Below are positions 36,842 through 60,925 of a stretch of 64,000 bases of DNA, in pieces. The notes under the pieces were generated by a model, which worked only from the letters and a program-made list of their open reading frames with translations, did no database searches and was not told where the DNA came from. The DNA is from Candidatus Saccharimonadota bacterium. Lineage in GTDB: Bacteria; Patescibacteriota; Saccharimonadia; Saccharimonadales; Saccharimonadaceae. Position numbers and translations under genes: made by a program. The stretch is taken from contig JAFRJN010000004.1 of assembly GCA_017432225.1 (NCBI GenBank), positions 42,201 through 106,200 on the forward strand, read 5' to 3'. Position 1 is the first letter of the stretch. Each line of letters starts with the position of its first letter.

Positions 36842-37395
36842 GCGTGCTCCTTTTCTGATTTTTCTGCTTTTTTAGGCTTTTTGGATTTACCGAAAACGAA
36901 TTTGTCGTAGAGCAAGAAATTCATAATCATAGTGACGGCGGTAGTAAGGACAAAAGCACCGGTCGTAAGGACAAACTCGTAGGAAAAATCTAGATGGAGA
37001 TTTTGGCAGATATTGTGGGCGAACTCGTAAAGAGGGGTAAAGAGGCTAAAAAATTGGGTGAGGCCAGGGCCGATAGGAAAGGTTAAAAGTAGGTTCCAAA
37101 TGAAAAATTTGTAAACCGCAGTTTTTGTTACGTGGCGCTCCTTCCAAGTGATTTTGGAATGCATAAGGTAGGCTACGATAGTGGTGATGAAAGTGGCGAT
37201 GGTGGTAGAGAGCCAAAGCAAATCGTTATTTTTGATAATAAGATTAGAAAGAATAGTATATAGAATGTAGTTAAAGACAGTTAGAAAAATGCCAACGAAA
37301 AGATAGCGAGTGGCATGCGTGGCAGTCTTGACGTCTGCCTTTGGGTCTGGATTTTCTAGAGTCTTTTCTTCGGTCTTATTTGAATCTGTATCCAT
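36838..37395 (-). CDS. GtrA-family membrane protein (putative polyprenyl-phosphate-sugar flippase)
   Basis: 185 aa, four TMs with GtrA-like spacing. ATGA overlap with galE. Confidence 0.7.
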   Translation of the reverse strand: MDTDSNKTEEKTLENPDPKADVKTATHATRYLFVGIFLTVFNYILYTILSNLIIKNNDLLWLSTTIATFITTIVAYLMHSKITWKERHVTKTAVYKFFIWNLLLTFPIGPGLTQFFSLFTPLYEFAHNICQNLHLDFSYEFVLTTGAFVLTTAVTMIMNFLLYDKFVFGKSKKPKKAEKSEKEHA

Positions 37396-37432
37396 GGGTA
37401 TTATTATATCACACCTGTGGTATAATAGGGGT
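37396..37432. promoter_or_regulatory. Divergent promoter pair, both -10 boxes 6-7 nt from a start codon
   Basis: Minus strand TGATATAAT (37411-37403), N7, then ATG 37395. Plus strand TGGTATAAT (37418-37426), N6, then ATG 37433. Confidence 0.6.
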
Positions 37433-40796: not shown

Positions 40797-40822
40797 GTTT
40801 TGGTGTATAATATATACCGTTT

Positions 40823-43705
40823 ATGGATGATAATTTTATACGAGTCAGAGGTGCTCGGCAGAATAATTTGAAAGATATTGATGTGGATATCCCTAGGGAT
40901 AAGCTCGTGATTATGACGGGTCTCTCGGGGTCGGGGAAGTCGTCTTTAGCATTTGATACGATTTATGCGGAGGGGCAGAGGCGGTATGTGGAGTCTCTCT
41001 CGTCTTATGCACGGATGTTTCTCGGGGTGATGGATAAGCCAGAGGTGGATTCGATTTCGGGTTTGTCACCGGCGATTTCGATTGACCAGAAGTCGACTTC
41101 GAGAAATCCGCGTTCGACGGTGGCGACAGTGACGGAAGTATATGATTATTTGAGGCTTCTATTTGCGAGAGTAGGGGTGCCGCATTGTCCGATTTGCCAT
41201 AAGCCGGTATCAAGACGGACGGCGGAAGATATTGTAAATGAAGTGATGAAATTGCCGCTTGGCTCTAAACTGATGCTACTTGCGCCGATCGTGTCGGCGA
41301 AAAAAGGTGAGTTTTTGCATATCCCAGAACAGTATACTCAAAAAGGATTTTCGCGAGTAAGGGTAGATGGGATTATTTACGCCCTAGATGAATTCCCGGA
41401 GCTAAATAAAAATGAGCGGCACGATATTGAGATCGTGGTGGATAGATTTGTGCTGTCGCCGGAGATTCTATCGAGGATATCTGGGTCGATTGAGCAGGCG
41501 CTCGAGATGGGCGAAGGAATTATCAAGGTGCTCAAAATTACTGATCGCTCGACGGCGGTGGGGGAATCTCGAGTGACTTCGGAAAATACGGAAGTGATTA
41601 CTTATTCGCAGAGGTATGCGTGTCCGGATCATCCGGATGAGTTGATACCGGAGCTGACGCCGCGGCTATTTTCATTTAACGCGCCAGAGGGGGCGTGCCC
41701 GGATTGTACGGGGCTCGGGTCAAAGATGGAAGTGGACCCAGCGCTGGTATTTAATAAAAACCTGACGATTGCGGAAGGTGGAATTCGGCCGTTTAACCGG
41801 GTGCAACAGGAATCTTGGTGGCTGAAAAGGTTGATGGCGGTGGGGTTGAAGCATGGATTTGATGTGTACACACCGATCGGAGATTTGTCAGAAGATGTGC
41901 GGCATTTGATTCTTTATGGGACGGGGGAAGAAAAATATGAAATGAAGATTTCTGGGTCGGGGCGGTTTGCCGATGGGACGGTGTATGAGACGACTTATGA
42001 GGGGGTGATTCCGACGCTTGAGAGGCGGTATAACGATCCGAAGACTTCGGAGTTTACGAAGCATGATATTGAAAGATTTATGCGGGTGAGGGAGTGTCAG
42101 ACTTGTCACGGGGCGCGGCTAAAGCCGGCAGTGCTTGCGGTGACGGTGCACGATCTCAATATTGTGGATATGTGTAATCTGGATGTGGATGCGACACTCG
42201 AGGTTTTGAATAAAGATTTGAAATTTAGCGCTGAAGAAGAGATGATTGCGGCGCCGATTCTGAAGGAAATTCGCGAGCGAGTGAAATTTATGAAAGATGT
42301 GGGGCTCGGGTATTTGGAACTTGGGCGAGCGGCAAATACTCTGTCTGGTGGCGAAGCGCAGAGAATTAGGCTGGCGACGCAAATCGGGTCGGGGCTGACG
42401 GGGGTTCTGTATGTACTAGATGAGCCATCGATTGGGCTGCACCAGAGGGACAATGATAAGCTAATCAATACTTTGAAACATTTGCGAGATCTTCATAATA
42501 CGGTGCTAGTGGTGGAGCATGATGAAGATACGATGAGAGCGAGCGACTATGTGATTGACATTGGGCCTTATGCGGGGGTAAATGGTGGGCGACTGGTAGC
42601 GGCGGGGACGCCGGAAGAGGTGGCCGCTAATCCGGATTCTATCACGGGGCAGTATCTGTCGGGGGCGAAAAATATTCCAGTGCCAAAGAAACGGCGGAAA
42701 GCGCCGAAGGGAATTGAACTGGTGGTACGAGGTGCGCGGGAAAATAATTTGAAAAATATTGATGTGCACATCCCGCTGGGAGTGATGACAGTGGTGTCGG
42801 GCGTGTCGGGGTCGGGGAAGTCGACTCTCGTGAATAATATTTTGTCGAATGAACTTTTGGCGAGATTACATCATGCGCAGACGGTGCCGGGTCTTCACGA
42901 CAAAATTGACGGGGTGGAAAATTTGAATAAGATTATTGTGATTGACCAGAGCCCGATTGGGCGGACGCCGCGGTCGAATCCAGCGACTTATACGGGGGTG
43001 TTTAACGCGATTCGCGAACTTTATGCGTCGCAGCCAGAAGCGGAAGTGCGGGGATACAAGGCAGGAAGATTTTCGTTTAATGTGAAGGGGGGTAGGTGTG
43101 AACATTGTCAGGGTGATGGGGTGAATAAGATTGAAATGCATTTTCTTCCGGATGTGTATGTGACTTGTCCGGCCTGTCATGGGCGGAGGTACAATCGCGA
43201 GGCGCTCGAGATTAAGTATAAGGGTAAAGATATTTCGCAGGTGCTCGACATGACAATTGATGAAGCGGTGGAGTTTTTCTCTAATATTCCGTCGATCGCT
43301 ACGAAACTCCGGACGATTCAGGAAGTGGGCTTAGGGTATATTCGGCTGGGCCAGCCGGCGACGACTTTCTCGGGTGGTGAAGCACAGAGAATTAAGCTCG
43401 CGACGGAACTGGCGCGACGGTCGACGGGACGGACTTTGTACGTCCTCGATGAGCCGACGACGGGGCTACATACGGACGATGTGAAACGGCTACTTGAGAT
43501 TTTAAATAAACTGGTGGACGGGGGGAATTCGATGATTATTATTGAGCATAATCTACATGTGATTAAATCGGCGGACTGGGTGATAGAGATGGGCCCGGAA
43601 GGTGGGTTGAAGGGTGGCCAAGTTTGTGATGAGGGGACGCCGGAAGATCTCGCGAAACGGGCGAAAACTCCGACTGGCGAGTATCTCAAAAAGTATTTGA
43701 AATAA
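40823..43705 (+). CDS. uvrA: Excinuclease ABC subunit A
   Basis: 960 aa. Two ABC modules ([20 protein letters not shown]) and zinc-finger Cys clusters. Confidence 0.97.
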
Positions 43706-48093: not shown

Positions 48094-48102
48094 TGATATA
48101 AT
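48094..48102 (+). promoter_or_regulatory. Extended -10 promoter of tRNA-Ser(TGA)
   Basis: TGATATAAT sits 7 nt upstream of tRNA nucleotide G1 (48110). Confidence 0.6.
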
Positions 48103-48109
48103 CAGAGAT

Positions 48110-48198
<89 letters not shown>

Positions 48199-48284: not shown

Positions 48285-48308
48285 AATCACCAATCTTGGT
48301 GATTTTTT
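48285..48308 (+). terminator. Rho-independent terminator before the pyrG promoter
   Basis: aatcaccaa-tc-ttggtgatt followed by a T run. The TGATATAAT box of pyrG starts at 48308. Confidence 0.65.
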
Positions 48309-48322
48309 GATATAATGGAGGT

Positions 48323-49978
48323 ATGAAGAGGTGTAAATATTTATTTGTGACTGGTGGGGTGTTGTCGGGTGTCGGTAAAGGGATTACGGCGGCGAGTATG
48401 GGGGCGATTTTGAAGGCTAAAGGCTATCGGGTGACGATGCAGAAGTGCGACCCGTACCTGAACGTGGATGCGGGGCTATTAAACCCGGTGGAGCATGGGG
48501 AGTGTTTCGTAACTCATGATGGGGTAGAGACGGACCTTGACCTCGGGCATTATGAGAGATTTCTCGACTTTGAGACTTCGAAATATTCGATTACTTTGTC
48601 CGGCTCGATTTATAAGGAGTTGATTGAGAGAGAGCGGGCAGGTGGATTTCATGGCAAAACGGTGCAGCTGGTGCCGCATTTTACCGACCTGGTGCAAGAA
48701 AAAATCGCTTTGGCCTCGAAAGATTCGGACGTACATATTGTGGAAATCGGGGGTACGGTGGGGGATTATGAAGGGTTGCCGTTTATTGAGGCGATTAGAT
48801 TATTTGCAAATAAAGTGGGGCGGCGGAACTGTTTGTATTTATCTGTAGTGTACGTGCCGTGGATTAATACTTCGAAAGAGCTCAAGACCAAGCCGGCGCA
48901 GAATGCACTCAAAGATCTCCGCGGATTTGGGATTATCCCAGATATCGTGTGCGTAAGGACGGAGAAACCGTGTCCACGGTCGATTTGTGAAAAAATCGCG
49001 GCATTTTCGGGGATTTCGGGAGACGCAGTGGTAAATTTGCCAGATATTAATTCGGTGTATGACGTACCATTTAATGTACTGAAATCTGGGGTGCTTGATA
49101 TTTTGAATGATTTTGTGGGTGATACAAGAGAGCCAGATATGAGTAAGTGGGCGGATTTTTCGGCGATGAGAGCGACGGATTTTGATCAGACGATAAAAGT
49201 AGGATTAGTGGCAAAATATGTAGGAAATGACGATACTTATATCTGTGTGACGGAGGCTCTGAAAGCGTCGGCGGCGCATAATAAAGTGAATCTAGATATC
49301 AAATGGGTAAATGCGGAAGATTTGGAGACTAATCCTCCTGAAAAGATGCTGGAGGGGCTAGATGGAATTGTAGTGCCAGGTGGGTTTGGTTCGCGTGGGG
49401 TGGAGGGTAAAATTAAAGCGGCAGACTATGCGCTTTCTCATAATTTGCCGTATCTGGGGCTGTGCCTAGGGATGCAGGTGGCATGTATCGCAGCGGCTAG
49501 ACGAGGTGGAGCCAAAGATGCTAGCTCTGAAGAGCTGGGTGCGAATGACAAGAATAACGTGATTTATATTATGGATGGACAAAAAGGGAAAGAGTCGACT
49601 GGCGGGACGATGAGACTGGGAGATTATCCGGCCAAACTTAAGAAAAAGACTTTGACGGCGGAGATTTACCGTGAAGAAGCGGAAGAATGCGGCGAATATA
49701 TATACGGTACGGAAGTTTTGAAAAGTGGTGATGTGAAAGTGATTGAAAGGCATCGACACCGCTATGAGGTAAATCAGAAGTTTTTGCCAGAGATAGAAAA
49801 AGGTGGGATTATCGTATCGGGGACTTCGCCGGACGGGAAACTAGTGGAGTTTGTCGAAGCACCGGAATGTGATTTCTTTGTGGCGACTCAAGCGCATCCG
49901 GAGTTTAAATCTAGGCCGCTCGCGGTGCATCCATTGTTTTATCATTTTATCAAAAATATCAAAAAACGTGCAAAATAG
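48323..49978 (+). CDS. pyrG: CTP synthase
   Basis: YLFVTGGVLSGVGKGITAAS N-terminus, GATase domain with GLCLGMQ. Confidence 0.97.
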   Translation: MKRCKYLFVTGGVLSGVGKGITAASMGAILKAKGYRVTMQKCDPYLNVDAGLLNPVEHGECFVTHDGVETDLDLGHYERFLDFETSKYSITLSGSIYKELIERERAGGFHGKTVQLVPHFTDLVQEKIALASKDSDVHIVEIGGTVGDYEGLPFIEAIRLFANKVGRRNCLYLSVVYVPWINTSKELKTKPAQNALKDLRGFGIIPDIVCVRTEKPCPRSICEKIAAFSGISGDAVVNLPDINSVYDVPFNVLKSGVLDILNDFVGDTREPDMSKWADFSAMRATDFDQTIKVGLVAKYVGNDDTYICVTEALKASAAHNKVNLDIKWVNAEDLETNPPEKMLEGLDGIVVPGGFGSRGVEGKIKAADYALSHNLPYLGLCLGMQVACIAAARRGGAKDASSEELGANDKNNVIYIMDGQKGKESTGGTMRLGDYPAKLKKKTLTAEIYREEAEECGEYIYGTEVLKSGDVKVIERHRHRYEVNQKFLPEIEKGGIIVSGTSPDGKLVEFVEAPECDFFVATQAHPEFKSRPLAVHPLFYHFIKNIKKRAK

Positions 49979-50005
49979 TTTTGACGCTTATGGTATAATA
50001 GTACT

Positions 50006-51769
50006 ATGGACGAAAGGGAGATACAGAATAAAAGGCGTGAAAACGAGGAGCAGGCTACTCGTGAGCGTGCAAAAATTTTGGGCCTGCCGTATGCAGATGC
50101 GAGAGAATTTGAAGATACAGTACCACTAGTGAAGGGGCTGATTGAAATTGAGCAGATGCATAAAGATTCGATTCTGCCTTTGTCTAGGGGTGGAGATAGC
50201 CAGCATTTTCAATTTTTGGTGACTAGCCAGACTCCGAAATCTGTGATCGACAAAATGCGCCAAGAATATTTGGATAAGGGTGAGCACGCGGACTTCTTCT
50301 TGATTTCTCTGTCGGCTTATCGGGTGCTGATGCTGCGCTACGATCCGCCAAAGGAGATTAAATATGATGATATCAAGATTGCTGGCGAAGGTGATTCGGA
50401 GACGATTGCGTCGGTATCCAAGACTCTTGCTAGCGTGTCGACGGAAAAAGTATTTGATTTCTTGATCGATCAGGCGGATAAGCTGGGGGCTTCGGATATT
50501 CATATTGAAAATTTGCGGGATGAAATTAGGATTCGGATGCGCGTGGATGGTTTGCTCCACCCAGTGGCAAAAATTGACCGAGATAGATACCGGATTTTTA
50601 TGGGGGAGCTGTCGTCACGGGCGGATGTTTCGACGGCATCGAATAAACCGCAGTCTGGGCACATGCAAAAAGAGATTGCAAGAGGGAAATCGTCGCACCT
50701 TCTAAATATTCGTGTGGAGACGATTCCGACGATGTATGGACAAGATGCAGTGCTGCGTCTGTTCAACTTTGATGAAACACTGCTTAATTTGGATTTGCTT
50801 GGTTTGTCGACTGACGAGCGGGCAGAAATTAATGAAGTGATTTCGCATCCGCGAGGGCTAGTTTTGATGGTAGGTCCTACAGGGTCTGGTAAATCTACTA
50901 CATTGTATTCGATGTTGAATGCTCTGAATACGACCGACCGTAAGATTATTACTTTGGAGGATCCAATCGAATATGGGATTACGGGGATTTCGCAGATTCC
51001 AATTCATACGAATGATGGCGGATCGTTTGCAGAAGGTTTAAGAAGTGTGCTTCGTCTAGATCCGGATGTAGTAATGGTAGGTGAGATTCGTGATGCGGAT
51101 ACGGCCAAGACAGCGATTCAAGCGTCTATTACTGGACATTTGGTTTTGTCGTCGTTCCACGCAAATTCAAGTTCGGCGGCGTTTTCGAGGATGATTGATT
51201 TGATTGGTGTAAACCCAATTTTTGCTTCTTCAATTCGGTTAGTAGTAGCACAGAGATTGGTGCGTAAATTATCACCTTCTAAAAGAGCGCGGCGAATTAC
51301 GGATGCGGAGGCGAGGTATATCCGCAAAGTGCTTGCTGGTGTGAGTCCGAAATGGTTTAAAGGCATCAAGGATGCAAGTGAAATTTTGGCGACGAAAAAT
51401 TCTGGACCAGTATTCACCGATGAGACGATGAACGCAACAAAGCTAGATAAAGCCCTTAAAGCTTACGATGATGACGCGGTGCTATCAGAAGCGGACTTGG
51501 AAGAGTTTGACTTTGGCGATTTGGTGTTATACGATCCGGTGCCAACAAGAGAAGAGCCGTTTGGATATAGTGGTCGAATGGTGATTATGGAACAGCTGGT
51601 AGTATCTGAAGATATGCAGGCGTTTATTAGCGGTGATGTGACGGATATTAATACTGCTGCAATTGAGAAGGTTGCCAAACAAAACGGAATGTTGACCCTC
51701 GAACAAAAAGGAGTGCTAGCGGCACTCAGAGGGGAAACGACTCTTGCTGAAGTATCTAGAGTAATATAA
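50006..51769 (+). CDS. pilB: GspE/PilB-family secretion ATPase (type IV pilus assembly ATPase-like)
   Basis: N-terminal T2SSE_N-like domain. Walker A GPTGSGKSTT, Asp box and His box (LSSFHANSS). Confidence 0.85.
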   Translation: MDEREIQNKRRENEEQATRERAKILGLPYADAREFEDTVPLVKGLIEIEQMHKDSILPLSRGGDSQHFQFLVTSQTPKSVIDKMRQEYLDKGEHADFFLISLSAYRVLMLRYDPPKEIKYDDIKIAGEGDSETIASVSKTLASVSTEKVFDFLIDQADKLGASDIHIENLRDEIRIRMRVDGLLHPVAKIDRDRYRIFMGELSSRADVSTASNKPQSGHMQKEIARGKSSHLLNIRVETIPTMYGQDAVLRLFNFDETLLNLDLLGLSTDERAEINEVISHPRGLVLMVGPTGSGKSTTLYSMLNALNTTDRKIITLEDPIEYGITGISQIPIHTNDGGSFAEGLRSVLRLDPDVVMVGEIRDADTAKTAIQASITGHLVLSSFHANSSSAAFSRMIDLIGVNPIFASSIRLVVAQRLVRKLSPSKRARRITDAEARYIRKVLAGVSPKWFKGIKDASEILATKNSGPVFTDETMNATKLDKALKAYDDDAVLSEADLEEFDFGDLVLYDPVPTREEPFGYSGRMVIMEQLVVSEDMQAFISGDVTDINTAAIEKVAKQNGMLTLEQKGVLAALRGETTLAEVSRVI

Positions 51770-51772: not shown

Positions 51773-51847
51773 TGGTAGGGCCAGTAGGAATCGAACCTAC
51801 ATTGTATCCTTAGAGGGGATATGTCCTATCCGTTGAACGATGGCCCC
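51773..51847 (-). tRNA. tRNA-Arg(TCT), CCA encoded
   Basis: Acceptor GGGGCCA/TGGCCCT (G1-U72), anticodon stem TATCC/GGATA with loop CCTCTAA, T-arm GTAGGTTCGATTCCTAC. Position 33 reads C. Confidence 0.8.
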
Positions 51848-51865
51848 GTATTTATATATTATACA

Positions 51866-52615
51866 CTATTTTTCGGGTTTTCTCAACTTGTAATAAATTG
51901 ATGGGGCGAAGCGAATGGGGGCGAGGGCCTGCTGGGCGGTGTCTTCCATTTTGACAAGACCGCGGGTTTTGAAAATCTTTTTTAATGCTTTGCTGCGGAA
52001 GTTAGAAACGGACAAAACTTTTTCTTGTTTGAAACCGATGCGTTTGAAAAGCTCCTCGACGTATTTGGGATGGTAATTATAAAAGCCGGTTTCGCAAATT
52101 TCGGTGTAGTTGGCTGGCTCTTTGCTCCAAGGGTTTTCTTTGGAACGAAAAGTGATATAACGAGCCATTTTGGGTAGAGTACGCTTGTTGGCAACTTCAA
52201 TGACGGCGACGCCGCCTGGCTTCAAAACGCGGTAAAGCTCTTCCAAAGCTTCGTCGAGATGCTCAAGGTGATGAGTAACGCGGACCATCATGAGGCCGTC
52301 CAATTCGTTGTCGCGGAATGGCAATTTGTAAATATCGCCGGCTTTGGTGTCGAGTTTGTTGCCATAAATTTCTTTGGCTTGCTCGAGCTCGGTCTTGGAA
52401 TAGTCAAACAAATAAACTTTGCGAGCGCGCTTTAAGTATTCATTGGCGAGACGGCCGTAGCCACCGCCGATGTCGGCAAACTTTTCCATGCGCTTCGGGA
52501 GGAGCTTACGAATAGCCATACGATCGGCTTGGTCTTCGTATTCGCGATCGGCGTCTTCCCAAAAAATCTTCTTGTAATCATATCCATTATAATCTGAAAC
52601 GACTTTATTTGTCAT
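51866..52615 (-). CDS. Class I SAM-dependent methyltransferase
   Basis: FADIGGGYGRL motif I, LKPGGVAVIE. 249 aa. Confidence 0.75.
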   Translation of the reverse strand: MTNKVVSDYNGYDYKKIFWEDADREYEDQADRMAIRKLLPKRMEKFADIGGGYGRLANEYLKRARKVYLFDYSKTELEQAKEIYGNKLDTKAGDIYKLPFRDNELDGLMMVRVTHHLEHLDEALEELYRVLKPGGVAVIEVANKRTLPKMARYITFRSKENPWSKEPANYTEICETGFYNYHPKYVEELFKRIGFKQEKVLSVSNFRSKALKKIFKTRGLVKMEDTAQQALAPIRFAPSIYYKLRKPEK

Positions 52616-52651
52616 ATTTTTATTATAACATATTTATGATACAATAAAAGC
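52616..52651. promoter_or_regulatory. Divergent promoter pair, both -10 boxes 6 nt from a start codon
   Basis: Minus strand TGTTATAAT (52630-52622), N6, then ATG 52615. Plus strand TGATACAAT (52637-52645), N6, then ATG 52652. Confidence 0.6.
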
Positions 52652-53962
52652 ATGAGCAGAGTCAGAAAAGACAAGTTTTTGCGATGTGGTGTGCTGCTTC
52701 TGGCGTTTTTATTTTTGGCTTTGGCGCTCACGCAACCGACCTTGGCGCTCACGAGCCATCAAATTAATTTGTATGGGCAGAATAGTATATTTTTTTATGA
52801 TCCGAATGCGAACTGTGTGGATATGAATGATGAGGATGATGAGTCGGGTGAGAGTGTTGGCTGGGATGGACATTGTTCGGATGTGTCATCGTATAATTCG
52901 CAAATTTTTAAATATTTCTTTGACGTATATAAAGTGGCGAGCAGTAATGGGCTGCCGTGGGAAGGCTTGATGGCGCAGTTAATTGGCGAAAGTAGTTTTA
53001 TGACTAGAGAAGTTTGCGCATTTAACCCATTAGGTCTTAAAGGCGAACCGTCTTGCGACGGAAAACACCGAAGCTTTAGTAACTATGATGAGGCATTTGC
53101 ATATTATGTGAATAGTATTGTGCCGGTAAGAATGGCAAAAGGTAGATTTACGAGCGATCCTTATGGATATGTAGAATTTTTGATAAATGGGGTGCCAGGA
53201 TATAGATATGCAACTGACCCAGATTATATAAATAAGATTTCGGCGATAGTCTGCGGTTTACAAAAATGGGCACAAAGAAATAATCGGCCGATTTCAGGGG
53301 TTGGCTCGGGAAGTAGCTCAACTAGTACAGGCAGTACGAGTAACAGTTCTTTGTATTGTCAGCCAGATAACAGTGAAAAAGATCCCTACGAACGTGGAAA
53401 TTGTATGGAAAATGGAACTTGTAGTGATTACGTATTTCCCTTAAAAGGAGCGACGAAATCGAACTATTTGCACAATAGCAGTCTTTCGCCTTTGCCCTGT
53501 AGAAACCTCTCTATGGGTGGGTGCCACCACGATTACTTTGCGATGGATTTGGGGTTAAGCACGGGCACGAAGAATGAGAACAATTATCCAGATCTTGTCG
53601 GTAAATTTTCTAGTTATTATTGGCAATCGGTGGGGGTTAAAGTGGTCGCTATGACTTCAGGTAGAATTATCAGTTATAAACCATATTCTAGGGCTACTCT
53701 TAATTATCAAACTAAATGTGCTTCGGTGATATATCAAACGAATGATGGTAGAAAGTTTTGGCTAGGGCATATGTTATATGATTCTAGATACAAAGCAGGA
53801 GATAGTTTTGGAACTGGTGATGTAATTGGCGAGGTGGGGCCACCGCCTTGTGCTGTGAGTACGCAGGCGCATTTACATGTAGATGAAACTCCTACATACG
53901 GAAGCAGCGGGTCGGTTAAGACGGTTGAATTAATTAATACTTTGTATGAAAGGCTACGGTGA
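52652..53962 (+). CDS. Secreted peptidoglycan hydrolase, glucosaminidase-like N-domain plus M23-like C-domain
   Basis: Signal peptide. LPWEGLMAQLIGESSF (glucosaminidase/FlgJ-like). C-terminal CHHDYFAMDL...GDVIGEVG...AHLHVDE resembles the M23 HxxxD/HxH motifs. Confidence 0.6.
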   Translation: MSRVRKDKFLRCGVLLLAFLFLALALTQPTLALTSHQINLYGQNSIFFYDPNANCVDMNDEDDESGESVGWDGHCSDVSSYNSQIFKYFFDVYKVASSNGLPWEGLMAQLIGESSFMTREVCAFNPLGLKGEPSCDGKHRSFSNYDEAFAYYVNSIVPVRMAKGRFTSDPYGYVEFLINGVPGYRYATDPDYINKISAIVCGLQKWAQRNNRPISGVGSGSSSTSTGSTSNSSLYCQPDNSEKDPYERGNCMENGTCSDYVFPLKGATKSNYLHNSSLSPLPCRNLSMGGCHHDYFAMDLGLSTGTKNENNYPDLVGKFSSYYWQSVGVKVVAMTSGRIISYKPYSRATLNYQTKCASVIYQTNDGRKFWLGHMLYDSRYKAGDSFGTGDVIGEVGPPPCAVSTQAHLHVDETPTYGSSGSVKTVELINTLYERLR

Positions 53963-54522: not shown

Positions 54523-55062
54523 CATTTTGGCGGTGAAGAAGCCGGCGAGCTCGTCGTCGTTATTGAGGACGAGAAAATAATAGGAATTGGTGCGTTCGAT
54601 TTCTTCGACGACGTGTTGTAATGAGTCAGTGACGTGAAGATATGAAACGGTTTTATCCATATACTTTTCGGCGCGGTCGGTCTTTTTGATTTCGAGAGCG
54701 TTTAATGCCTCGGTATGAATGACGCCTTTGACGTGATTTTTGTTGTCTACGACGGGGAAATTGGTGAAGCCGGATTTATATAATTTGTCGAGCATGAGAG
54801 GACCGAGAAAATCTTTGGCATTTACAAAAACCATTTTGGATTTATCTATCATCAAGTCGGCGACGATGCGGTCGTCAAAACTCATGACGGCGGAAATACG
54901 GGCGCGATCTTTTTGATTTAAAACGGTGAGTGGTGTGCGCTTAATCACGCCAATAAAATCTTGGATGGTCTTTGGCGTGTAAGGCTCGGGCTTTTTCACC
55001 TCTTCTGGCGCTTCGGACTCATCTGAACCTCCGATGATTTTTGATAAAAACTCACCTAGCAT
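54499..55062 (-). CDS. CBS-domain pair protein
   Basis: Two CBS-like segments (VADLMIDKSKMVFV...FPVVDN; VSYLHVTDSL...FLVLNND). Start set at ATG 55062. Confidence 0.7.
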   Translation of the reverse strand: MLGEFLSKIIGGSDESEAPEEVKKPEPYTPKTIQDFIGVIKRTPLTVLNQKDRARISAVMSFDDRIVADLMIDKSKMVFVNAKDFLGPLMLDKLYKSGFTNFPVVDNKNHVKGVIHTEALNALEIKKTDRAEKYMDKTVSYLHVTDSLQHVVEEIERTNSYYFLVLNNDDELAGFFTAKMLLDYLLG

Positions 55063-55092
55063 GTTATAATAATTATAACACAAAGGAGTAAT

Positions 55093-55872
55093 ATGAAAAA
55101 AGCAAGAGGTTTCTCAAAGGTGGGAGTGATAATTGGTGTGGTGGCGCTAGTGTTTGTAGCGGTGGCGACATATTTTGTAATAGACGGGAACAATAAAGCA
55201 ACAGATTTTACAAAATATGATTTTTATTCAGTGATTTCTGGGGACGAGCATAACGGAAATATTAGTGATCATGTGAAAACGGATAAAGATGGGTCTTATA
55301 CTGGCGCGCCGGTGTACGTGTTTGAATATGCGGACTATCAATGTCCGGGTTGTGCGTCACTCAACACCAAAATAAATCAGGTAGTGGATGAATTAAACGG
55401 GAAGCTCGTGGTGGTGTATAGAAATTATCTACTATCTTATCACCAGAACGCGACAGCGGCAGCTTCGGCGGCGGAAGCGGCAGGGATGCAAGGATTTTGG
55501 AAAGAATATGCGGATCTTTTATTTGCCAATCAAAGCGAGTGGCAGTATCTTAACGGCTCGGAAAGAACGGCGGCTTTTGAAAAATATTTTGTCCAGGTAG
55601 CTGGCGATAAAGCAGATATGGAAAAATTCCGTAGCGATCTAGCTTCGGACGCGGTGTCAAAAAAGATTAGCTTTGACATGGGGATTGGTAAACGTATAAA
55701 TGTGGAGGGGACACCAGCATTTTATGTAGAAGGCCAATTTATCCCTTGGAGCAAAAGCGAGGGTGGTTCGGTTACAATTGACGGCAAAACTATCACCTGG
55801 GATTCAGCGCTCTCTGGTAATGATTTTGTGAATATTTTGAAAAAAATTGTAGAAGCGAAACTCGGTGAATAA
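55093..55872 (+). CDS. DsbA-family thioredoxin-fold thiol:disulfide oxidoreductase, membrane-anchored
   Basis: CPGC active site (EYADYQCPGCASLN), N-terminal TM. AAGGAG SD upstream. Confidence 0.8.
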   Translation: MKKARGFSKVGVIIGVVALVFVAVATYFVIDGNNKATDFTKYDFYSVISGDEHNGNISDHVKTDKDGSYTGAPVYVFEYADYQCPGCASLNTKINQVVDELNGKLVVVYRNYLLSYHQNATAAASAAEAAGMQGFWKEYADLLFANQSEWQYLNGSERTAAFEKYFVQVAGDKADMEKFRSDLASDAVSKKISFDMGIGKRINVEGTPAFYVEGQFIPWSKSEGGSVTIDGKTITWDSALSGNDFVNILKKIVEAKLGE

Positions 55873-55956
55873 TTAAATTTCGATGAATTCTTGCCACTTG
55901 GCTGGGGCAATTTTAGCCTTTTGCTCTTTGGAATTTTTGGATTTTTTGATACGCAT
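55873..55956 (-). CDS. Candidate 27-aa basic small protein
   Basis: Manual translation gives MRIKKSKNSKEQKAKIAPAKWQEFIEI. TGATAGAAT (55972-55964), N7, then ATG 55956, the same geometry as many genes here. No homology evidence. Confidence 0.3.
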   Translation of the reverse strand: MRIKKSKNSKEQKAKIAPAKWQEFIEI

Positions 55957-56010
55957 GGTATCTATTCTATCAAAAAAATGCGCGTGATGCAAGCACAAAA
56001 ATGAATCTTA

Positions 56011-56019
56011 TGATATAAT
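56011..56019 (+). promoter_or_regulatory. Extended -10 promoter of aspS
   Basis: TGATATAAT sits 7 nt upstream of ATG 56027, with no SD. Confidence 0.6.
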
Positions 56020-56026
56020 ATATCTT

Positions 56027-57826
56027 ATGAGAATTAAAACTGCTGATTTAGATAAACATTTGGGTGAAGAAGTAGAGGTGGCTGGATGGGTGAATAGCCG
56101 GCGCGACCATGGAGGATTGATTTTTATTGATCTTCGCGATTTCGATGGGCTAATTCAGCTGGTGGTGACGCCAGAAACGGCGGAGTCGTTTGCGTTGGCG
56201 GAGACGGTGCGAGATGAGTTTGTGCTATCGGCTCGGGGTACGATGCGGAAGCGCGAGCCGGAGCTGGTGAATTCGAATATCCCGACGGGCGAAATTGAAC
56301 TGGTGGTGTCAGAGTTGAAACTCTTAAATCGGAGTGAGCCTTTGCCGGTGAATACGCACGATGATGGTGATGCGTCATCGGAAGAGATGAGGCTGAAATA
56401 TCGGTATCTGGACTTGCGTCGGCCAAAGATGCAGAAAAGGTTGAAACGGCGCTCGGAGTATTACAAAGTGGTGCGCGACTATATGTATGCGCATGGATTT
56501 ACGGAGATTACGACGCCGATTTTGGCTAACTCGTCGCCAGAAGGGGCGAGGGATTTCCTTGTGCCGTCTAGGCTTCATCCGGGGAAATTTTATGCTTTGC
56601 CACAGGCGCCACAGCAGTTTAAACAACTTTTGATGGTGGGGGGAGTGGAAAAGTATTTCCAGATTGCGCCGTGTTTCCGCGATGAAGACCCGCGGGCAGA
56701 TAGGCTGTATGGTGATTTTTACCAGCTGGATTTTGAGATGTCGTTTGTGGATGATGGCGAGATAGTGCGACGCGAGATTGAACCTTTGTATTTGAAATTG
56801 GTGACGGAGTTTGCGGAAAAGAAAATTGTCTGCCGGAGTGAAATTGCGAAGTCGTATATTCCGGAGGATGACGTGGTGCCGAGGCTTCCTTATGAAGTGG
56901 CGATGGATAATTACGGCGTGGACAAGCCGGATTTGCGCTATGGGATGGAGCTGGTAGATTTGACCGAGGTGTTCTCAAAAACGGAGTTTAAAGTATTTAA
57001 ACAGCCGTGCGTAAAGGCTTTGTGTGTGAAAGGTGGGGCGGAGCTGACGCGGCGGGAAATTGACGAATTTACCGAAAAAGCGCGGAAGCTGGGCGCTGGG
57101 GGGCTGGCATATATATTATATAGTGACGGGGAAGCGAAATCGCCGATTTTGAAGTTTATGTCTGAGGCGGAAATTGATGCAGTGAAGGAAAAAATGGGCG
57201 CGGAGGATGGCGATGCGGTGTTCTTTGGCGCGGATACAAGGGATCTGGTAAACAAAGTTTTGGGGCAGCTGAGAATCGCTTTTGCGGATAGATTTGGACT
57301 CAAAAATCCAAAAGAAGTGGCGCTGACTTGGGTAGTAGATTTTCCATTCTATGAATGGGACGAGAAAAATAAGAAACTGGACTTTGGACATAACCCGTTT
57401 AGTATGCCAAAGGGTGGACTCTCTGCTCTTGAGGCAGCGAAGACTGATGCGGAGAAACTGGCGATTAAGGCCGACCAGTACGATATGGTGATGAACGGGT
57501 ATGAATGTGCGTCTGGTGCGGTGAGAAATTACAATCCGGAAATTATGTACAAAGTATTTAATATACTCGGCTATAACAATGAGTATGTGGAAGCGAGATT
57601 TGGCGGGATGCTAGGTGCATTCAAATTTGGCGCGCCACCGCATGCGGGCTGTGCGCCGGGGCTAGATCGGATTTTTATGATTCTCGAGGATGAAGACAAC
57701 ATCCGTGACGTGGTGGCATTTCCAAAGAACGGTAACGGGGTGGATTTGATGATGAATTCGCCGTCGGAAGTGGATGCGGAACAACTTGACGAGGCGCATC
57801 TTGCAATTATTCCAGAAGAGGATTAA
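56027..57826 (+). CDS. aspS: Aspartate--tRNA ligase
   Basis: 599 aa. OB-fold N-domain, class II motifs (FRDEDPRADR, GLDRIFMIL), bacterial insertion domain. Confidence 0.95.
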   Translation: MRIKTADLDKHLGEEVEVAGWVNSRRDHGGLIFIDLRDFDGLIQLVVTPETAESFALAETVRDEFVLSARGTMRKREPELVNSNIPTGEIELVVSELKLLNRSEPLPVNTHDDGDASSEEMRLKYRYLDLRRPKMQKRLKRRSEYYKVVRDYMYAHGFTEITTPILANSSPEGARDFLVPSRLHPGKFYALPQAPQQFKQLLMVGGVEKYFQIAPCFRDEDPRADRLYGDFYQLDFEMSFVDDGEIVRREIEPLYLKLVTEFAEKKIVCRSEIAKSYIPEDDVVPRLPYEVAMDNYGVDKPDLRYGMELVDLTEVFSKTEFKVFKQPCVKALCVKGGAELTRREIDEFTEKARKLGAGGLAYILYSDGEAKSPILKFMSEAEIDAVKEKMGAEDGDAVFFGADTRDLVNKVLGQLRIAFADRFGLKNPKEVALTWVVDFPFYEWDEKNKKLDFGHNPFSMPKGGLSALEAAKTDAEKLAIKADQYDMVMNGYECASGAVRNYNPEIMYKVFNILGYNNEYVEARFGGMLGAFKFGAPPHAGCAPGLDRIFMILEDEDNIRDVVAFPKNGNGVDLMMNSPSEVDAEQLDEAHLAIIPEED

Positions 57827-58929: not shown

Positions 58930-58990
58930 CATTTTTGTGAAAAAATAGAGAGATTTATGGTAGAATAGATATATATGAAAGGAGAAAATA

Positions 58991-60925
58991 GTGGCAGGTG
59001 AAAATCCCAAAAATTCAGTAAGCGGTAAAGGTGCTAATAATATGATGAATCGTTCTAATATGATTCGGAGTGCGCTATTTACGATAATTCTGATTTGTCT
59101 TTCGGCGATGCTGATTGTGAATTGGACGAGCAATGGTCCGGTGAAGGTAGAAGTACCTTTTTCGGAAGTGGTGACTAGGGCGAACGATCCAAACGGTGAC
59201 ATTGCTAAAATCACAGTGTATGGGGATACACTTGATATCACTCTGAAGGGGAAAGACCAGCCAACGGAGACTTCGAGAAAAGACTCTTCGGGGACTTTGT
59301 ATGAACAAGGCATAATTAATCATTGCGAAGATTTGGAAGGTGACGAGCTGAAAAAATGCAACGAGACTTATCCAGTGATTGAGTATAAGGAAAGTGTAAA
59401 TACGTGGGGAATCGTGCTAGATGTGGCGCTGACGGTGTTGCCAATTATAGCAGTGGTGATTTTCTTCTCCTGGATGATGAAACAGGCGACGGCGGCGAAT
59501 AGTCAGTCAATGTCTTTTGGTAAAGCAAAGGCAAAACTTTATGGTCCGGATAAAAAGAAAGTAACTTTTAAAGATGTGGCAGGAAATGAATCAGCTAAAC
59601 AAGATTTGACGGAAATTGTAGATTTTCTCAAAAATCCAAAGAAATATGAGAAGCTGGGAGCGAAAATCCCGCGAGGGGTACTACTCGCAGGAGCACCAGG
59701 CACTGGTAAAACTTTGATGGCTAGAGCAGTGGCTGGGGAAGCTGACGTACCGTTTTTCTCGATTTCGGGTTCGGAATTTGCAGAAATGTTTGTAGGCGTA
59801 GGCGCTTCTCGAGTCCGTGATCTTTTCTCTAAAGCGAAGAAAAATGCGCCGTCGATTATCTTTATTGATGAGATTGACGCGGTAGCACACAAACGTGACG
59901 CTCGCGGTGGAGCGGGGCGCGAAGACGAGCAGACTCTGAATCAAATTCTTGTGGAAATGGACGGGTTTGATAACGACTCGGGGGTGATTGTGATGGCAGC
60001 GACAAACCGGGTAGATATGCTAGATAAGGCGCTCCTTCGTCCGGGGCGGTTTGACCGGCACGTAAATGTGACTTTGCCGGAGAGAAAGGACCGTTTGGAG
60101 ATCCTTAAAGTGCATTTTAAGGGCAAACCGGTGTCTTCGGACGTAGACCTCGAGGCTTTGGCCAAGAAAACTGCGGGTTCGTCTGGTGCGGACCTCGCGA
60201 ATATCGCTAATGAGGCGGCGATTACGGCGGCGCGCGAAGGGCATAAGGCGATTTCGAATGCGGACCTTACCTCGGCGTTTGAGCGGGTAGCGATCGGGCC
60301 GGAAAGAAAGTCCAAAGTGATGAACGAGAAGGAGCGCAAAATCACGGCCTATCACGAAGCGGGGCACGCGATTGTGGGACATGTACTGCCAGATTCTGAC
60401 CCGGTGCATAAGGTGACGATTATTCCGCGGGGTTCGACTGGTGGGGTGACGTGGTTCTTGCCACCAGAGGATAGAAGCTATAAGAATATTTATGAGCTGA
60501 AAGACATTTTGGCGCGAGCGATGGGTGGTAGAATCGCAGAGAAATTGATCTTTGGCGCGGATGCGGTGACGACTGGTGCGTCATCGGATCTTAAGAATGT
60601 GGCGGAGCTTTCAAAATCAATGATCGTAGAAGAAGGCATGGGAAGTGGCACTAGAAATTTGGTATTTCCGGGCGAAGAAACAGGATATTATACGATTACT
60701 ACTGGCAAGCCATATTCGGAAAAAACTGCAGAGCTAATTGACGCCGAGATTAAGAAATTGTCGGATGAAGCGGCAATGAGGGCCGAGCAAGTTTTGAAAG
60801 CGAACAAGAAAGTGTTGGATAATTTGGCAGAAGAACTTTTGAAACACGAGACTTTGGAAGAGGCAGAGCTTGAGCCGATTCTCAAGGATGCGAAATTGCC
60901 AGAGGCGGCAAAACTCTATAAGTAA
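58991..60925 (+). CDS. ftsH: ATP-dependent zinc metalloprotease FtsH
   Basis: GTG start with AAGGAG upstream. Two TMs, AAA+ Walker [10 protein letters not shown], zinc site HEAGHA. Confidence 0.95.

What the first reader, a model, noticed from the sequence alone, without database searches (positions are those of the whole stretch)
52613..52654. Extended -10 boxes 6-8 nt from start codons: apparent widespread leaderless mRNAs
Many genes here have TGnTAnAAT, or TATAAT, ending 6-9 nt before the start codon, with no room for a Shine-Dalgarno sequence. The instances, by gene start, are:
- RNA methyltransferase 4781: TGCTATAAT-N7
- hypothetical 4838: TATAAT-N9
- rnpA 11166: TATAAT-N7
- LCP 14988: N8
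- lexA-like 15005: N6
- GT61-like 20225: TGTTATAAT-N7
- GT 28449: TATAAT-N6
- GT2 29887: TGGTATAAT-N6
- wzm 35819: TGGTAAAAT-N8
- gtrA 37395: TGATATAAT-N7
- GT-C 37433: TGGTATAAT-N6
- pyrG 48323: TGATATAAT-N6
- pilB 50006: TGGTATAAT-N6
- methyltransferase 52615: TGTTATAAT-N6
- hydrolase 52652: TGATACAAT-N6
- 27-aa ORF 55956: TGATAGAAT-N7
- aspS 56027: TGATATAAT-N7
Transcription normally starts about 7 nt after the -10 box, so these transcripts would begin at or next to the AUG. Other genes keep clear AGGAGG-type sites (dnaA, HD, jag, rfbB, groES, groEL, dsbA-like, ftsH, pepN, ldt), so two initiation modes seem to coexist. Several of these boxes lie inside the 3' end of the preceding gene.
Basis: partly seen in the sequence, partly recalled or inferred. 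Interest (0 to 1): 0.65.

Follow-up and report, generated by a model that had tools for sequence, protein, structure and literature searches.

The report
Leaderless genes in a Saccharibacteria genome
In this gut Saccharibacteria (TM7) genome piece about 37% of the genes have a promoter -10 box 6-11 bases before the ATG and no ribosome-binding site, so their mRNAs most likely start at the start codon: a known mechanism that I found no paper describing for this lineage.

Summary
All 17 listed boxes exist with the stated spacings; the 27-aa ORF at 55956 is on the minus strand. I found five more: 11519, 16719, 25006, 40823 and 55062.

Of 56 curated gene starts, 21 have a strong -10 box (mostly TGnTAnAAT) 6-11 nt upstream. 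None of these 21 has a Shine-Dalgarno (SD) core. Another 27 have an SD core and no box (Fisher p = 3e-9). Only 0.75% of other ATGs carry such a box (P = 2e-30), and shuffled upstream regions give 0.9 hits instead of 21.

Ten related Saccharibacteria loci show the same peak: 47 of 122 boxes have an ATG at N6 or N7. aspS, pilB and two other genes keep box and spacing while the surrounding DNA has diverged.

Three further signs point to promoters that fire at the A of the ATG:
- The same box precedes tRNA genes.
- The base before the ATG is a pyrimidine in 53 of 54 N6/N7 cases.
- Every start judged leaderless is ATG, never GTG or TTG.

No usable RNA data existed, so transcription starts are inferred, not shown. 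This is a new member of a known kind, like the leaderless-rich genomes of Actinobacteria and Deinococcus. I found no paper describing it for Saccharibacteria. Interest is moderate.

The parts
52613..52630 (-). Methyltransferase gene start (ATG at 52615) with TGTTATAAT-N6. This is one half of the flagged divergent pair.
   Evidence: Pfam Methyltransf_11. Four of four orthologues keep TGnTATAAT-N6/7-ATG.
52637..52654 (+). Glucosaminidase/M23-like hydrolase gene start (ATG at 52652) with TGATACAAT-N6. This is the other half of the pair; the two 9-mers lie 6 nt apart.
   Evidence: Pfam Glucosaminidase.
4779..4797 (-). RNA methyltransferase gene start (ATG at 4781), TGCTATAAT-N7.
   Evidence: Pfam tRNA_U5-meth_tr.
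4820..4840 (+). Gene for a 736-aa hypothetical protein, start ATG at 4838, TATAAT-N9. An alternative hexamer TAATAT would give N7.
11150..11168 (+). rnpA start (ATG at 11166), TATAAT-N7. The rpmH stop codon TAA lies inside the hexamer.
   Evidence: Pfam Ribonuclease_P: residue 3 aligns with profile position 2.
11502..11521 (+). Start ATG at 11519 of the gene next to rnpA (yidC-like by position), TGTTATAAT-N8. The box lies inside the 3' end of rnpA.
14986..15005 (-). LCP gene start (ATG at 14988), TGATATAAT-N8. Its hexamer overlaps that of the lexA-like promoter in a 16-bp intergenic palindrome.
14990..15007 (+). lexA-like HTH gene start (ATG at 15005), TATAAT-N6.
   Evidence: Pfam LexA_DNA_bind: residue 4 aligns with profile position 2.
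16717..16738 (-). Gene start ATG at 16719, TGTTAAAAT-N10, so a leader of about 3 nt is likely.
20223..20241 (-). GT61-like glycosyltransferase gene start (ATG at 20225), TGTTATAAT-N7.
   Evidence: Pfam Glyco_transf_61.
25004..25024 (-). Gene start ATG at 25006, TGTTAAAAT-N9.
28434..28451 (+). Glycosyltransferase gene start (ATG at 28449), TATAAT-N6. The box lies inside the preceding gene (26656-28503).
29872..29889 (+). GT2 gene start (ATG at 29887), TGGTATAAT-N6. The box lies in the 3' end of the preceding gene.
35817..35836 (-). wzm-like ABC permease gene start (ATG at 35819), TGGTAAAAT-N8.
37393..37411 (-). gtrA-family gene start (ATG at 37395), TGATATAAT-N7.
   Evidence: Pfam GtrA_DPMS_TM.
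37418..37435 (+). GT-C-like gene start (ATG at 37433), TGGTATAAT-N6, divergent from gtrA with a 37-bp gap.
40803..40825 (+). Gene for a 960-aa protein, start ATG at 40823, TATAAT-N11, so a leader of about 4 nt is likely.
48308..48325 (+). pyrG start (ATG at 48323), TGATATAAT-N6. The GGAGG in the spacer lies 1 nt from the ATG, too close to act as a Shine-Dalgarno site.
   Evidence: Pfam CTP_synth_N: residue 5 aligns with profile position 1.
49991..50008 (+). pilB start (ATG at 50006), TGGTATAAT-N6, 27 nt after the pyrG stop codon.
   Evidence: Pfam T2SSE. Four of four orthologues keep the box at N6/N7.
55060..55080 (-). CBS-domain gene start (ATG at 55062), TGTTATAAT-N9.
   Evidence: Orthologues in L001, L003, L004 and L006 keep the box (N9-N12) and start at residue 1.
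56011..56029 (+). aspS start (ATG at 56027), TGATATAAT-N7. A terminator-like hairpin at 55900-55918 lies upstream.
   Evidence: Nine of ten relatives keep TGnTAnnAT-N7-ATG as the only conserved upstream block; L007 has GGAG instead.
55954..55972 (-). TGATAGAAT-N7-ATG opening a 27-codon ORF (MRIKKSKNSKEQ...) divergent from aspS. Whether it is a real gene is unknown.
48094..48110 (+). TGATATAAT-N7 in front of the mature 5' G of tRNA-Ser(tga). This shows the same box at a gene that is not translated.
   Evidence: N7 is kept in L001 and L003.
2719..2738 (-). TGTTATAAT-N10 in front of tRNA-Ser(gga).
51847..51886 (-). TTGAGA-17-TATAAT promoter, N10 in front of tRNA-Arg(tct).
10794..10823 (-). Contrast case, dnaA: TGCTATAAT, then 20 nt containing AGGAGG, then GTG. 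The mRNA has a leader and a Shine-Dalgarno site.
55062..55095 (+). Contrast case: TGTTATAAT, then 22 nt containing AAAGGAG, then ATG at 55093. Promoter plus Shine-Dalgarno site is kept in six of six orthologues.
58958..58993 (+). Contrast case, ftsH: TGGTAGAAT, then 24 nt containing AAAGGAG, then GTG at 58991.

Best explanation
The window comes from a ruminant-gut Saccharibacteria (TM7, Patescibacteria/CPR) genome.

Its housekeeping promoters are extended -10 promoters with consensus T-R-T-G-n-T-A-T-A-A-T and little or no -35 element. At 21 of 56 genes the box ends 6-11 nt before the ATG, mostly 6-8 nt. These include 11 of the 17 genes that diverge from their upstream neighbour, which must therefore head a transcription unit. 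RNA polymerase normally starts about 7 nt after the -10 hexamer. It would therefore start at the A of the ATG, or 1-4 nt before it in the N8-N11 cases.

The resulting mRNA has no room for a Shine-Dalgarno (SD) site. It would be translated by the leaderless route, in which a ribosome with initiator tRNA binds a 5'-terminal AUG directly.

Internal operon genes and the other unit heads (dnaA, rpmH, groES, ftsH and others) use ordinary SD sites on short leaders of 12-40 nt.

Shown here: the motif, its spacing, its exclusivity with SD, its presence before tRNA genes, its conservation, and the ATG-only and pyrimidine-at-minus-1 rules.
Inferred: the transcription start positions and the mode of ribosome binding.
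For: Enrichment and spacing:
- 21 of 56 starts carry a -10 box at N6-11, against 0.75% of other ATGs (P = 2e-30).
- Shuffled upstream regions give 0.89 +/- 0.92 hits.
- The annotation-free peak lies at N6-9 in the window and at N6/N7 in ten related loci, where 47 of 122 boxes have an ATG and 41 of those open ORFs of at least 80 aa. Seventy non-Saccharibacteria loci show no peak.
- Every one of the ten related loci shows the pattern.

The box and the SD core never coincide: 0 starts have both, 21 have the box only, 27 have SD only, 8 have neither (Fisher p = 3.4e-9).

The box is a promoter, not a ribosome-binding site:
- It carries the TG (TRTG) extension.
- It lies 18-46 nt upstream of SD-led genes.
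- It lies 7-14 nt before the mature 5' end of tRNA genes in the window and in relatives.

Signs that transcription starts at the A of the ATG:
- The base before the ATG is a pyrimidine in 18 of 21 window cases, against 15 of 35 other genes (p = 0.002). It is a pyrimidine in 41 of 41 N6/N7 cases in relatives.
- All 21 window starts and all 52 starts in relatives are ATG. No GTG or TTG occurs at N6-9, where about 4 are expected by chance, whereas 4 of 35 other window genes use GTG.

Conservation:
- aspS keeps TGnTAnnAT-N7-ATG in nine of ten relatives. It is the only conserved block upstream, and the spacer varies in sequence but not in length.
- pilB, the 52615 methyltransferase and the 55062 gene keep it in four of four relatives. 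SD-led 55093 stays SD-led in six of six.

The chosen start codons are correct where this could be checked. Pfam profiles begin at residues 3-5 of rnpA, the lexA-like protein and pyrG. Orthologue alignments start at residue 1.
Against: - No transcription start was mapped. The only clearly RNA run holding this organism has depth of about 1-3 and shows mainly tRNAs. The 'RNA?' runs that hold relative L010 have flat, DNA-like coverage crossing the predicted starts.
- Five cases have N9-N11 spacing and probably carry 2-4 nt leaders rather than none.
- Four boxes lie inside the upstream gene with no terminator between. Those genes are probably also transcribed as internal cistrons, and how they are translated there is unknown.
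- Six of the 21 starts were chosen with knowledge of the motif.
Confidence: 0.85

Rival explanations
1. The boxes are real promoters, but most of these mRNAs carry very short leaders of 1-5 nt rather than starting exactly at the A of the ATG. They would be 'short-leadered' rather than strictly leaderless.
For: Eight of the 21 window cases have N8-N11 spacing. For 55062 the spacing drifts from N9 to N12 among orthologues. tRNA genes show the same box at N7-N14, so the distance from box to functional 5' end is not fixed.
Against: The dominant classes are N6 and N7: 13 of 21 in the window and 41 of 52 in relatives. Their minus-1 base is a pyrimidine in 53 of 54 cases, as expected if the polymerase is steered to start at the A. 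Studies of Mycobacterium group leaders of up to about 5 nt with leaderless mRNAs (own knowledge), so this refines the main explanation rather than replacing it.
Confidence: 0.1
2. For genes packed on the same strand, the boxes inside the upstream gene are weak or inactive. These genes would be expressed mainly from polycistronic mRNAs, and their ATGs lacking a Shine-Dalgarno site would be reached by translational coupling or re-initiation after the upstream stop codon.
For: 10 of the 21 genes follow a same-strand neighbour. For 11166, 11519, 28449 and 29887 the gaps are 8, 2, -55 and 7 nt, with no terminator between. Three other genes at junctions of 1, -17 and 1 nt have neither box nor SD (8049, 26656, 43707). 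Coupling without SD therefore probably exists in this genome.
Against: Perfect TGnTATAAT 9-mers at exactly N6-N8 inside coding sequence are not expected by chance; no other ATG in the window has a top-scoring box at N6-9. Other tightly packed junctions have clear AGGAG sites instead, so the genome supplies an SD where one is needed. The 11 divergent genes cannot be explained this way.
Confidence: 0.04
3. The TATAAT-like element works at the RNA level as an A/U-rich, non-Shine-Dalgarno ribosome-binding or enhancer element on longer mRNAs. This would resemble the GeneMarkS-2 'group B' non-SD motif.
For: The element is A/U-rich and sits where a ribosome-binding site would sit. No RNA data exclude longer transcripts.
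Against: - The conserved TG (TRTG) extension is a DNA contact of sigma-70 region 3.0 and has no known role in ribosome binding (own knowledge).
- The identical 9-mer occurs 18-46 nt upstream of SD-led genes and 7-14 nt upstream of tRNA genes, which are not translated.
- It is absent from 27 SD-led genes, whereas a general ribosome-binding motif should accompany all genes.
- The pyrimidine-at-minus-1 rule is a transcription-start feature.
Confidence: 0.01

Closest known systems
Leaderless-rich bacterial genomes, GeneMarkS-2 'group C': Actinobacteria such as Mycobacterium, Streptomyces and Corynebacterium, and Deinococcus-Thermus (Lomsadze et al. 2018, PMC6028130)
   Same: A Pribnow-type -10 box lies 6-8 nt from the start codon of first genes in operons. 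The remaining genes use Shine-Dalgarno sites at the same distance. The paper predicts leaderless transcription for 25-50% of operons in group C bacteria. Here 21 of 56 genes and 11 of 17 divergent unit heads fit.
   Different: The lineage is different (Patescibacteria/CPR) and is not named in that paper's text. The genome is AT-rich, and the promoter is a full extended -10 (TRTGnTATAAT) rather than the looser TANNNT. Only ATG is used here, 73 of 73 starts counting relatives, whereas mycobacterial leaderless genes also use GTG (own knowledge). Promoters are often embedded in the preceding gene.
Extended -10 ('TGn') promoters and the '-16 region' TRTG motif of Gram-positive promoters (Bacillus subtilis, Streptococcus; own knowledge)
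   Same: The consensus is T-R-T-G-n-TATAAT, with a weak or absent -35 element.
   Different: In Firmicutes these promoters normally drive mRNAs with leaders and strong Shine-Dalgarno sites. Here a large share abut the start codon.
Reduced-genome Mollicutes such as Mycoplasma pneumoniae (own knowledge)
   Same: Both have small genomes, strong -10 boxes, weak -35 elements and many genes without a Shine-Dalgarno site and with very short or no 5' leader.
   Different: Here SD use is retained and strong for about half of the genes, and the two classes do not overlap. The lineages are unrelated.
Archaeal leaderless mRNAs (Haloferax, Sulfolobus; GeneMarkS-2 'group D')
   Same: First genes of operons start at or next to the 5' end of the transcript, and internal genes use Shine-Dalgarno sites.
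   Different: The archaeal promoter is a TATA box about 26 nt upstream that is read by TBP and TFB. Here it is a bacterial sigma-70-type -10 box about 7 nt upstream.
Classical single leaderless mRNAs of E. coli systems (lambda cI from PRM, Tn1721 tetR; own knowledge)
   Same: A 5'-terminal AUG is needed, and it is bound directly by the ribosome with initiator tRNA.
   Different: Those are isolated cases in a genome dominated by Shine-Dalgarno sites. Here leaderless starts are a major, conserved class.

Membership tests
Bacterial genome with frequent leaderless transcription (GeneMarkS-2 group C) | A -10 (Pribnow) motif localised about 6-10 nt upstream of the start codons of first genes in operons | tested here: met
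   21 of 56 starts have the motif at N6-11, including 11 of 17 genes divergent from their upstream neighbour. The peak is at N6-9 in the window and at N6/N7 in ten relatives.
Bacterial genome with frequent leaderless transcription (GeneMarkS-2 group C) | The other genes (internal genes and leadered first genes) use a Shine-Dalgarno-type ribosome-binding site, so two start models coexist | tested here: met
   27 of 56 starts have an SD core at 3-13 nt, against 8.9% of other ATGs. No start has both signals.
Bacterial genome with frequent leaderless transcription (GeneMarkS-2 group C) | The pattern holds genome-wide | not testable with these tools
Only the 64-kb window and 147 kb from ten relatives were analysed.
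Leaderless mRNA | The transcription start coincides with, or lies within a few nt of, the first base of the start codon | not testable with these tools
   No usable RNA 5'-end data exist. Indirect support comes from the N6/N7 spacing and the pyrimidine at minus 1 in 53 of 54 cases.
Leaderless mRNA | No Shine-Dalgarno sequence, with AUG as the 5'-terminal start codon | tested here: met
   None of the 21 starts has an SD core. 21 of 21 window starts and 52 of 52 starts in relatives are ATG, with no GTG or TTG.
Extended -10 (TGn / TRTG) sigma-70-type promoter | TG dinucleotide one base upstream of the -10 hexamer | tested here: met
   In the aligned window promoters, 18 of 21 have T and 16 of 21 have G at those positions. 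One position further upstream is R in 19 of 21, preceded by T in 18 of 21.
Extended -10 (TGn / TRTG) sigma-70-type promoter | The -35 hexamer is dispensable or weak | tested here: met
   Only a faint TT signal appears 17 nt upstream. The classical two-hexamer scan finds 48 sites against 33 +/- 6.5 expected, and its 48 listed sites include only one of the seven start-codon-proximal boxes in the scanned 44-64 kb (55062).
Extended -10 (TGn / TRTG) sigma-70-type promoter | Drives transcription of genes of any kind, not only protein-coding genes | tested here: met
   The same box lies 7-14 nt before the mature 5' end of most tRNA genes that have no tRNA immediately upstream, in the window and in relatives (three exceptions at 20-27 nt, two without a box). 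Promoter activity itself was not measured.

The most novel reading that the evidence does not exclude
Saccharibacteria may have stripped 5' leaders from gene expression as a lineage-wide, gene-specific and selected trait. Most transcription units would fire from extended -10 promoters without a -35 element, placed so that RNA synthesis begins at the first functional base. For proteins that base is the A of an obligatory AUG, enforced by a pyrimidine at minus 1. For at least tRNA-Ser(tga) it is the mature 5' G, which would bypass RNase P. Promoters are often written into the last codons of the preceding gene. This would make the -10 box the single element that sets both the transcription start and the protein N-terminus in these tiny genomes.
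Probability: 0.55. Interest if true: 0.55.

Novelty: new member of a known kind. Interest (0 to 1): 0.4.

Why it matters
- **Annotation.** Gene callers that expect a Shine-Dalgarno site can misplace starts in these genomes. Some database aspS homologues are called 603-631 aa long instead of 598-599. The box-to-ATG rule gives a simple way to fix the N-termini of many orphan Saccharibacteria proteins.
- **Genetic tools.** Saccharibacteria have only recently become genetically tractable (PMC10187176). A 9-bp TGnTATAAT box plus a 6-7 nt spacer ending in a pyrimidine plus ATG would be a minimal native expression signal for constructs.
- **Biology.** It adds an AT-rich lineage outside Actinobacteria and Deinococcus-Thermus to the bacteria with a large leaderless gene class. 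It also shows which housekeeping genes (aspS, pilB and others) keep one initiation mode over long evolutionary distances. This bears on how translation initiation adapts in small CPR genomes with reduced ribosomes.

The mechanism itself is not new.

Tried and rejected
The rRNA operon found in relative L010 holds only 23S and 5S, not 16S.
- **RNA evidence.**
  - Three RNA searches with window sequence found only one metatranscriptome, X21, with a word share of 0.05-0.06. Laid on the window and on L002, it gave short contigs of depth 1-3 and mainly tRNAs, with no 5'-end information.
  - A search with relative L010 (mouse gut) gave 24 'RNA?' runs. Eight were laid. They show flat coverage with contigs crossing promoters and several genes, so they look like DNA or carry no 5'-end information.
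- **Reaching a cultured relative (TM7x) through aspS homologues.** The best 120 hits are all at least 83% identical gut relatives, so no TM7x locus was obtained.
- **Literature.**
  - No paper in the library links 'leaderless' with Saccharibacteria, TM7, Patescibacteria or CPR in its own text.
  - The TM7x transcriptome preprint does not mention promoters, leaders or transcription starts.
  - A 2025 paper in Nucleic Acids Research (NAR) inferred 188 TM7x starts from RNA-seq coverage but does not discuss leaderless mRNAs.
  - The GeneMarkS-2 supplementary tables are not held.
- **Rejected explanations.** Chance or AT-rich intergenic composition is rejected by the shuffles and by the counts at other ATGs. 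A non-SD ribosome-binding motif is rejected because the same box precedes tRNA genes and leadered genes. Wrongly chosen start codons are rejected for rnpA, lexA-like, pyrG, aspS, pilB, 52615 and 55062 by Pfam and orthologue N-termini.
- **Classical -35/-10 scan.** It is only weakly enriched and, in the scanned 44-64 kb, lists only one of the seven start-codon-proximal boxes (55062). This fits -35-independent promoters.


Full report
**What the window is**

The aspS gene at 56027-57826 finds its closest relatives in 'Candidatus Saccharibacteria' and Nanosyncoccus genomes assembled from metagenomes of ruminant and other gut samples (loci L001-L010, 68-90% amino-acid identity). DNA runs holding 98-99% of the window's words are gut metagenomes. 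The window is therefore from an uncultured gut Saccharibacterium (TM7, Patescibacteria/CPR). It has about 44% G+C and about 56 tightly packed genes.

**Checking the observation**

I read the upstream sequence of all 17 listed starts. The apparent miss at 55956 arose because I first read the plus strand. On the minus strand TGATAGAAT-N7-ATG opens a 27-codon ORF.

At the flagged coordinates, two boxes on opposite strands lie 6 nt apart. TGTTATAAT (52622-52630) and TGATACAAT (52637-52645) are each 6 nt from an ATG (52615 on the minus strand, 52652 on the plus strand).

A systematic pass over all genes found five more cases: 11519 (N8), 16719 (N10), 25006 (N9), 40823 (N11) and 55062 (N9).

**Is it more than chance?**

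- *Without annotation.* The window has 51 TGnTAnAAT matches on both strands. My rough composition estimate expects about 14. Nineteen have an ATG 6-9 nt downstream and 16 of these open ORFs of at least 80 aa. Other spacings average about 0.8.
- *With a curated list of 56 starts.* 21 have a strong -10 box at N6-11. 'Strong' means TAnnnT with either 6 of 6 matches to TATAAT or 5 of 6 plus the TG extension. Only 15 of 2008 other ATGs have one (binomial P = 2e-30).
- *Shuffling.* Shuffling each gene's 40 upstream bases gives 0.89 +/- 0.92 hits, never more than 5 in 2000 trials. AT-rich intergenic composition therefore does not explain the result.
- *Shine-Dalgarno (SD) sites.* An SD core at 3-13 nt is present at 27 of 56 starts, against 8.9% of other ATGs (P = 2e-14). 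The two signals never coincide: 0 starts have both, 21 have the box only, 27 have SD only and 8 have neither (Fisher p = 3.4e-9).
- *Caveat.* Six of the 21 starts are not the first start codon of their ORF and were picked knowing the motif. The annotation-free counts are free of that circularity.

**Is the box a promoter or a translation signal?**

Aligned on the hexamer, the 21 sites give T(18/21)-R(19/21)-T(18/21)-G(16/21)-n-TATAAT, with only a faint TT about 17 nt further upstream. The 52 sites in relatives give the same pattern. This is the extended -10, or '-16 TRTG', promoter type. The classical two-hexamer scan is only weakly enriched (48 sites against 33 +/- 6.5 expected) and, in the 44-64 kb it covered, lists only one of the seven start-codon-proximal boxes (55062).

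The identical 9-mer also lies 18-46 nt upstream of genes that do have an SD site. Examples are dnaA, groES, ftsH, 17346, 30835, 46468, 47982 and 55093. It also lies 7-14 nt before the mature 5' end of tRNA genes:
- tRNA-Ser(tga) at N7, the same in the window, L001 and L003;
- tRNA-Ser(gga) at N10;
- tRNA-Arg(tct) at N9-N14;
- tRNA-Ile and tRNA-Pro in relatives at N8-N11.

An element that precedes untranslated genes and sits at variable distance from SD-led genes is a promoter, not a ribosome-binding site.

**Signs that transcription starts at the A of the ATG**

RNA polymerase usually starts about 7 nt after the -10 hexamer and prefers a purine preceded by a pyrimidine. This is established knowledge, and the 49-species analysis in PMC12641261 also centres transcription starts 7 bp downstream of the -10 element.

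With N6 the A of the ATG is that seventh base. With N7 it is the eighth. The base before the ATG is a pyrimidine in 18 of 21 window cases, against 15 of 35 other genes (p = 0.002). It is a pyrimidine in 41 of 41 N6/N7 cases in relatives, where the background is 50%. Counting the 13 window N6/N7 cases by hand gives 12 of 13, so 53 of 54 in all.

All 21 window starts and all 52 starts in relatives are ATG. No GTG or TTG occurs at N6-9 behind a box, although about 4 would be expected by chance and 4 of the 35 other window genes start with GTG. A strict need for a 5'-terminal AUG is a known property of leaderless translation in E. coli-type systems (own knowledge).

**Conservation**

In ten related loci (147 kb), 122 TGnTAnAAT boxes occur. 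Of these, 47 have an ATG at N6 or N7, and 41 of those open long ORFs. Each of the ten loci contributes. The 70 non-Saccharibacteria loci show no peak.

Gene by gene:
- aspS keeps TGnTAnnAT, then exactly 7 variable bases, then ATGAGA in nine of ten relatives. This is the only conserved block in 60 nt of otherwise unalignable upstream DNA.
- L007 is the exception. It has lost the box and gained GGAG 8 nt from the ATG, a switch of initiation mode.
- pilB, the 52615 methyltransferase and the 55062 CBS gene keep the leaderless layout in four of four relatives.
- 55093 keeps its promoter-plus-SD layout in six of six relatives.

**Are the start codons right?**

Pfam profiles begin almost at the predicted N-terminus:
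- rnpA residue 3 aligns with profile position 2;
- lexA-like residue 4 aligns with profile position 2;
- pyrG residue 5 aligns with profile position 1.

Orthologue alignments begin at residue 1. Most aspS homologue clusters are 598-599 aa long.

**Layout**

Of 17 genes that diverge from their upstream neighbour, and therefore must head a transcription unit, 11 are of the leaderless type. Five of the other six have an SD site on a short leader; 20277 has a 23-nt leader behind a box but no SD core. Divergent pairs share intergenic regions of 16-56 bp. These hold little beyond two back-to-back boxes, which overlap at 14988/15005.

Ten leaderless-type genes follow a same-strand neighbour. For four of them the box lies inside the upstream gene's last codons, and the rpmH stop codon TAA is part of rnpA's TATAAT. 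These genes are probably also transcribed as internal cistrons. Their translation in that context would need coupling or re-initiation, which I did not test.

aspS, in contrast, follows a terminator-like hairpin at 55900-55918.

**What could not be done**

RNA data were not usable:
- X21 is the one run with a clear metatranscriptome label that holds this organism. Its contigs are short and of depth 1-3, and it mainly shows tRNAs.
- Runs labelled 'RNA?' that hold relative L010 have flat coverage crossing promoters, so they look like DNA.

Transcription starts and the ribosome-binding mode are therefore inferred.

**Comparison with what is known**

This is the architecture that GeneMarkS-2 calls 'group C'. 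That group has a Pribnow box 6-8 nt from the starts of first genes and SD sites for the rest, and it is typical of Actinobacteria and Deinococcus-Thermus (PMC6028130). It differs here in four ways:
- the lineage;
- the full extended -10 consensus in an AT-rich genome;
- the exclusive use of ATG;
- promoters embedded in upstream genes.

The full-text searches for 'leaderless' with Saccharibacteria, TM7, Patescibacteria or CPR and the search for Shine-Dalgarno with Saccharibacteria found no paper describing this for the lineage. The TM7x transcriptome preprint is silent on promoters and leaders. A CPR ribosome paper discusses anti-SD loss only in some Parcubacteria.

Earlier AI notes of this scan report the same pattern in other Saccharibacteria and CPR windows. 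They agree with this reading but are not independent evidence.

**Verdict**

It is a new member of a known kind. Interest is moderate (0.4). It is useful for annotating and engineering these organisms, and it adds an AT-rich lineage outside Actinobacteria and Deinococcus-Thermus to the bacteria rich in leaderless genes. The mechanism is well known and no transcription-start data exist yet.

Noticed in passing
window 1-64000; also L001-L010: Strand asymmetry is extreme. GC skew is +0.14 to +0.33 in every 4-kb bin. At third codon positions it is +0.54 in top-strand letters for genes on both strands, so it does not depend on the direction of transcription. The sign does not change across dnaA/dnaN/rpmH-rnpA (8-11.5 kb), where an origin would be expected. 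Relatives L001-L006 have an absolute skew of 0.23-0.29, while L007-L010 have only 0.02-0.11. aspS lies on the G-rich strand here and in L001 and L002, but on the C-rich strand in L003-L006.
   Followed up: partly
window 48094-48198; L001 970-1071; L003 17841-17942: tRNA-Ser(tga) has TGnTATAAT exactly 7 nt before its mature 5' G in three species. The predicted transcription start is therefore the mature 5' end, giving a tRNA without a 5' leader that would not need RNase P, although rnpA is present at 11166. Most other tRNA genes that have no tRNA immediately upstream have predicted leaders of only about 1-7 nt.
   Followed up: partly
window 55873-55972 (minus strand): A 27-codon lysine-rich ORF (MRIKKSKNSKEQKAKIAPAKWQEFIEI) lies behind TGATAGAAT-N7. 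It diverges from the aspS promoter and overlaps the terminator-like hairpin of the upstream gene on the other strand. Conservation was not checked.
   Followed up: no
window 58958-59001: The ftsH promoter TGGTAGAAT-N8-ATG opens an 8-codon ORF (MKGENSGR) that overlaps the ftsH Shine-Dalgarno site and GTG start. The ATG is absent in L002, so it is probably not functional.
   Followed up: partly
L007 1601-1663: In this relative aspS has lost the extended -10 box and carries GGAG 8 nt before the same ATG. This is a lineage-specific switch from the leaderless layout to a Shine-Dalgarno-led layout.
   Followed up: partly
window 14986-15007: The LCP gene and the lexA-like gene diverge across only 16 bp. 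Their two -10 hexamers overlap in the palindrome ATATAATTATAT, so two polymerases cannot occupy both promoters at once.
   Followed up: partly
homologue list of aspS: Most aspS homologue clusters are 598-599 aa long, but some gene calls are 603-631 aa. These are probably starts extended upstream by gene finders that expect a ribosome-binding site.
   Followed up: no
L010 1628-5055: Relative L010 has 23S and 5S rRNA genes 5 kb upstream of aspS, with no 16S gene within the 1.6 kb before the 23S gene. The rRNA operon may be split.
   Followed up: no
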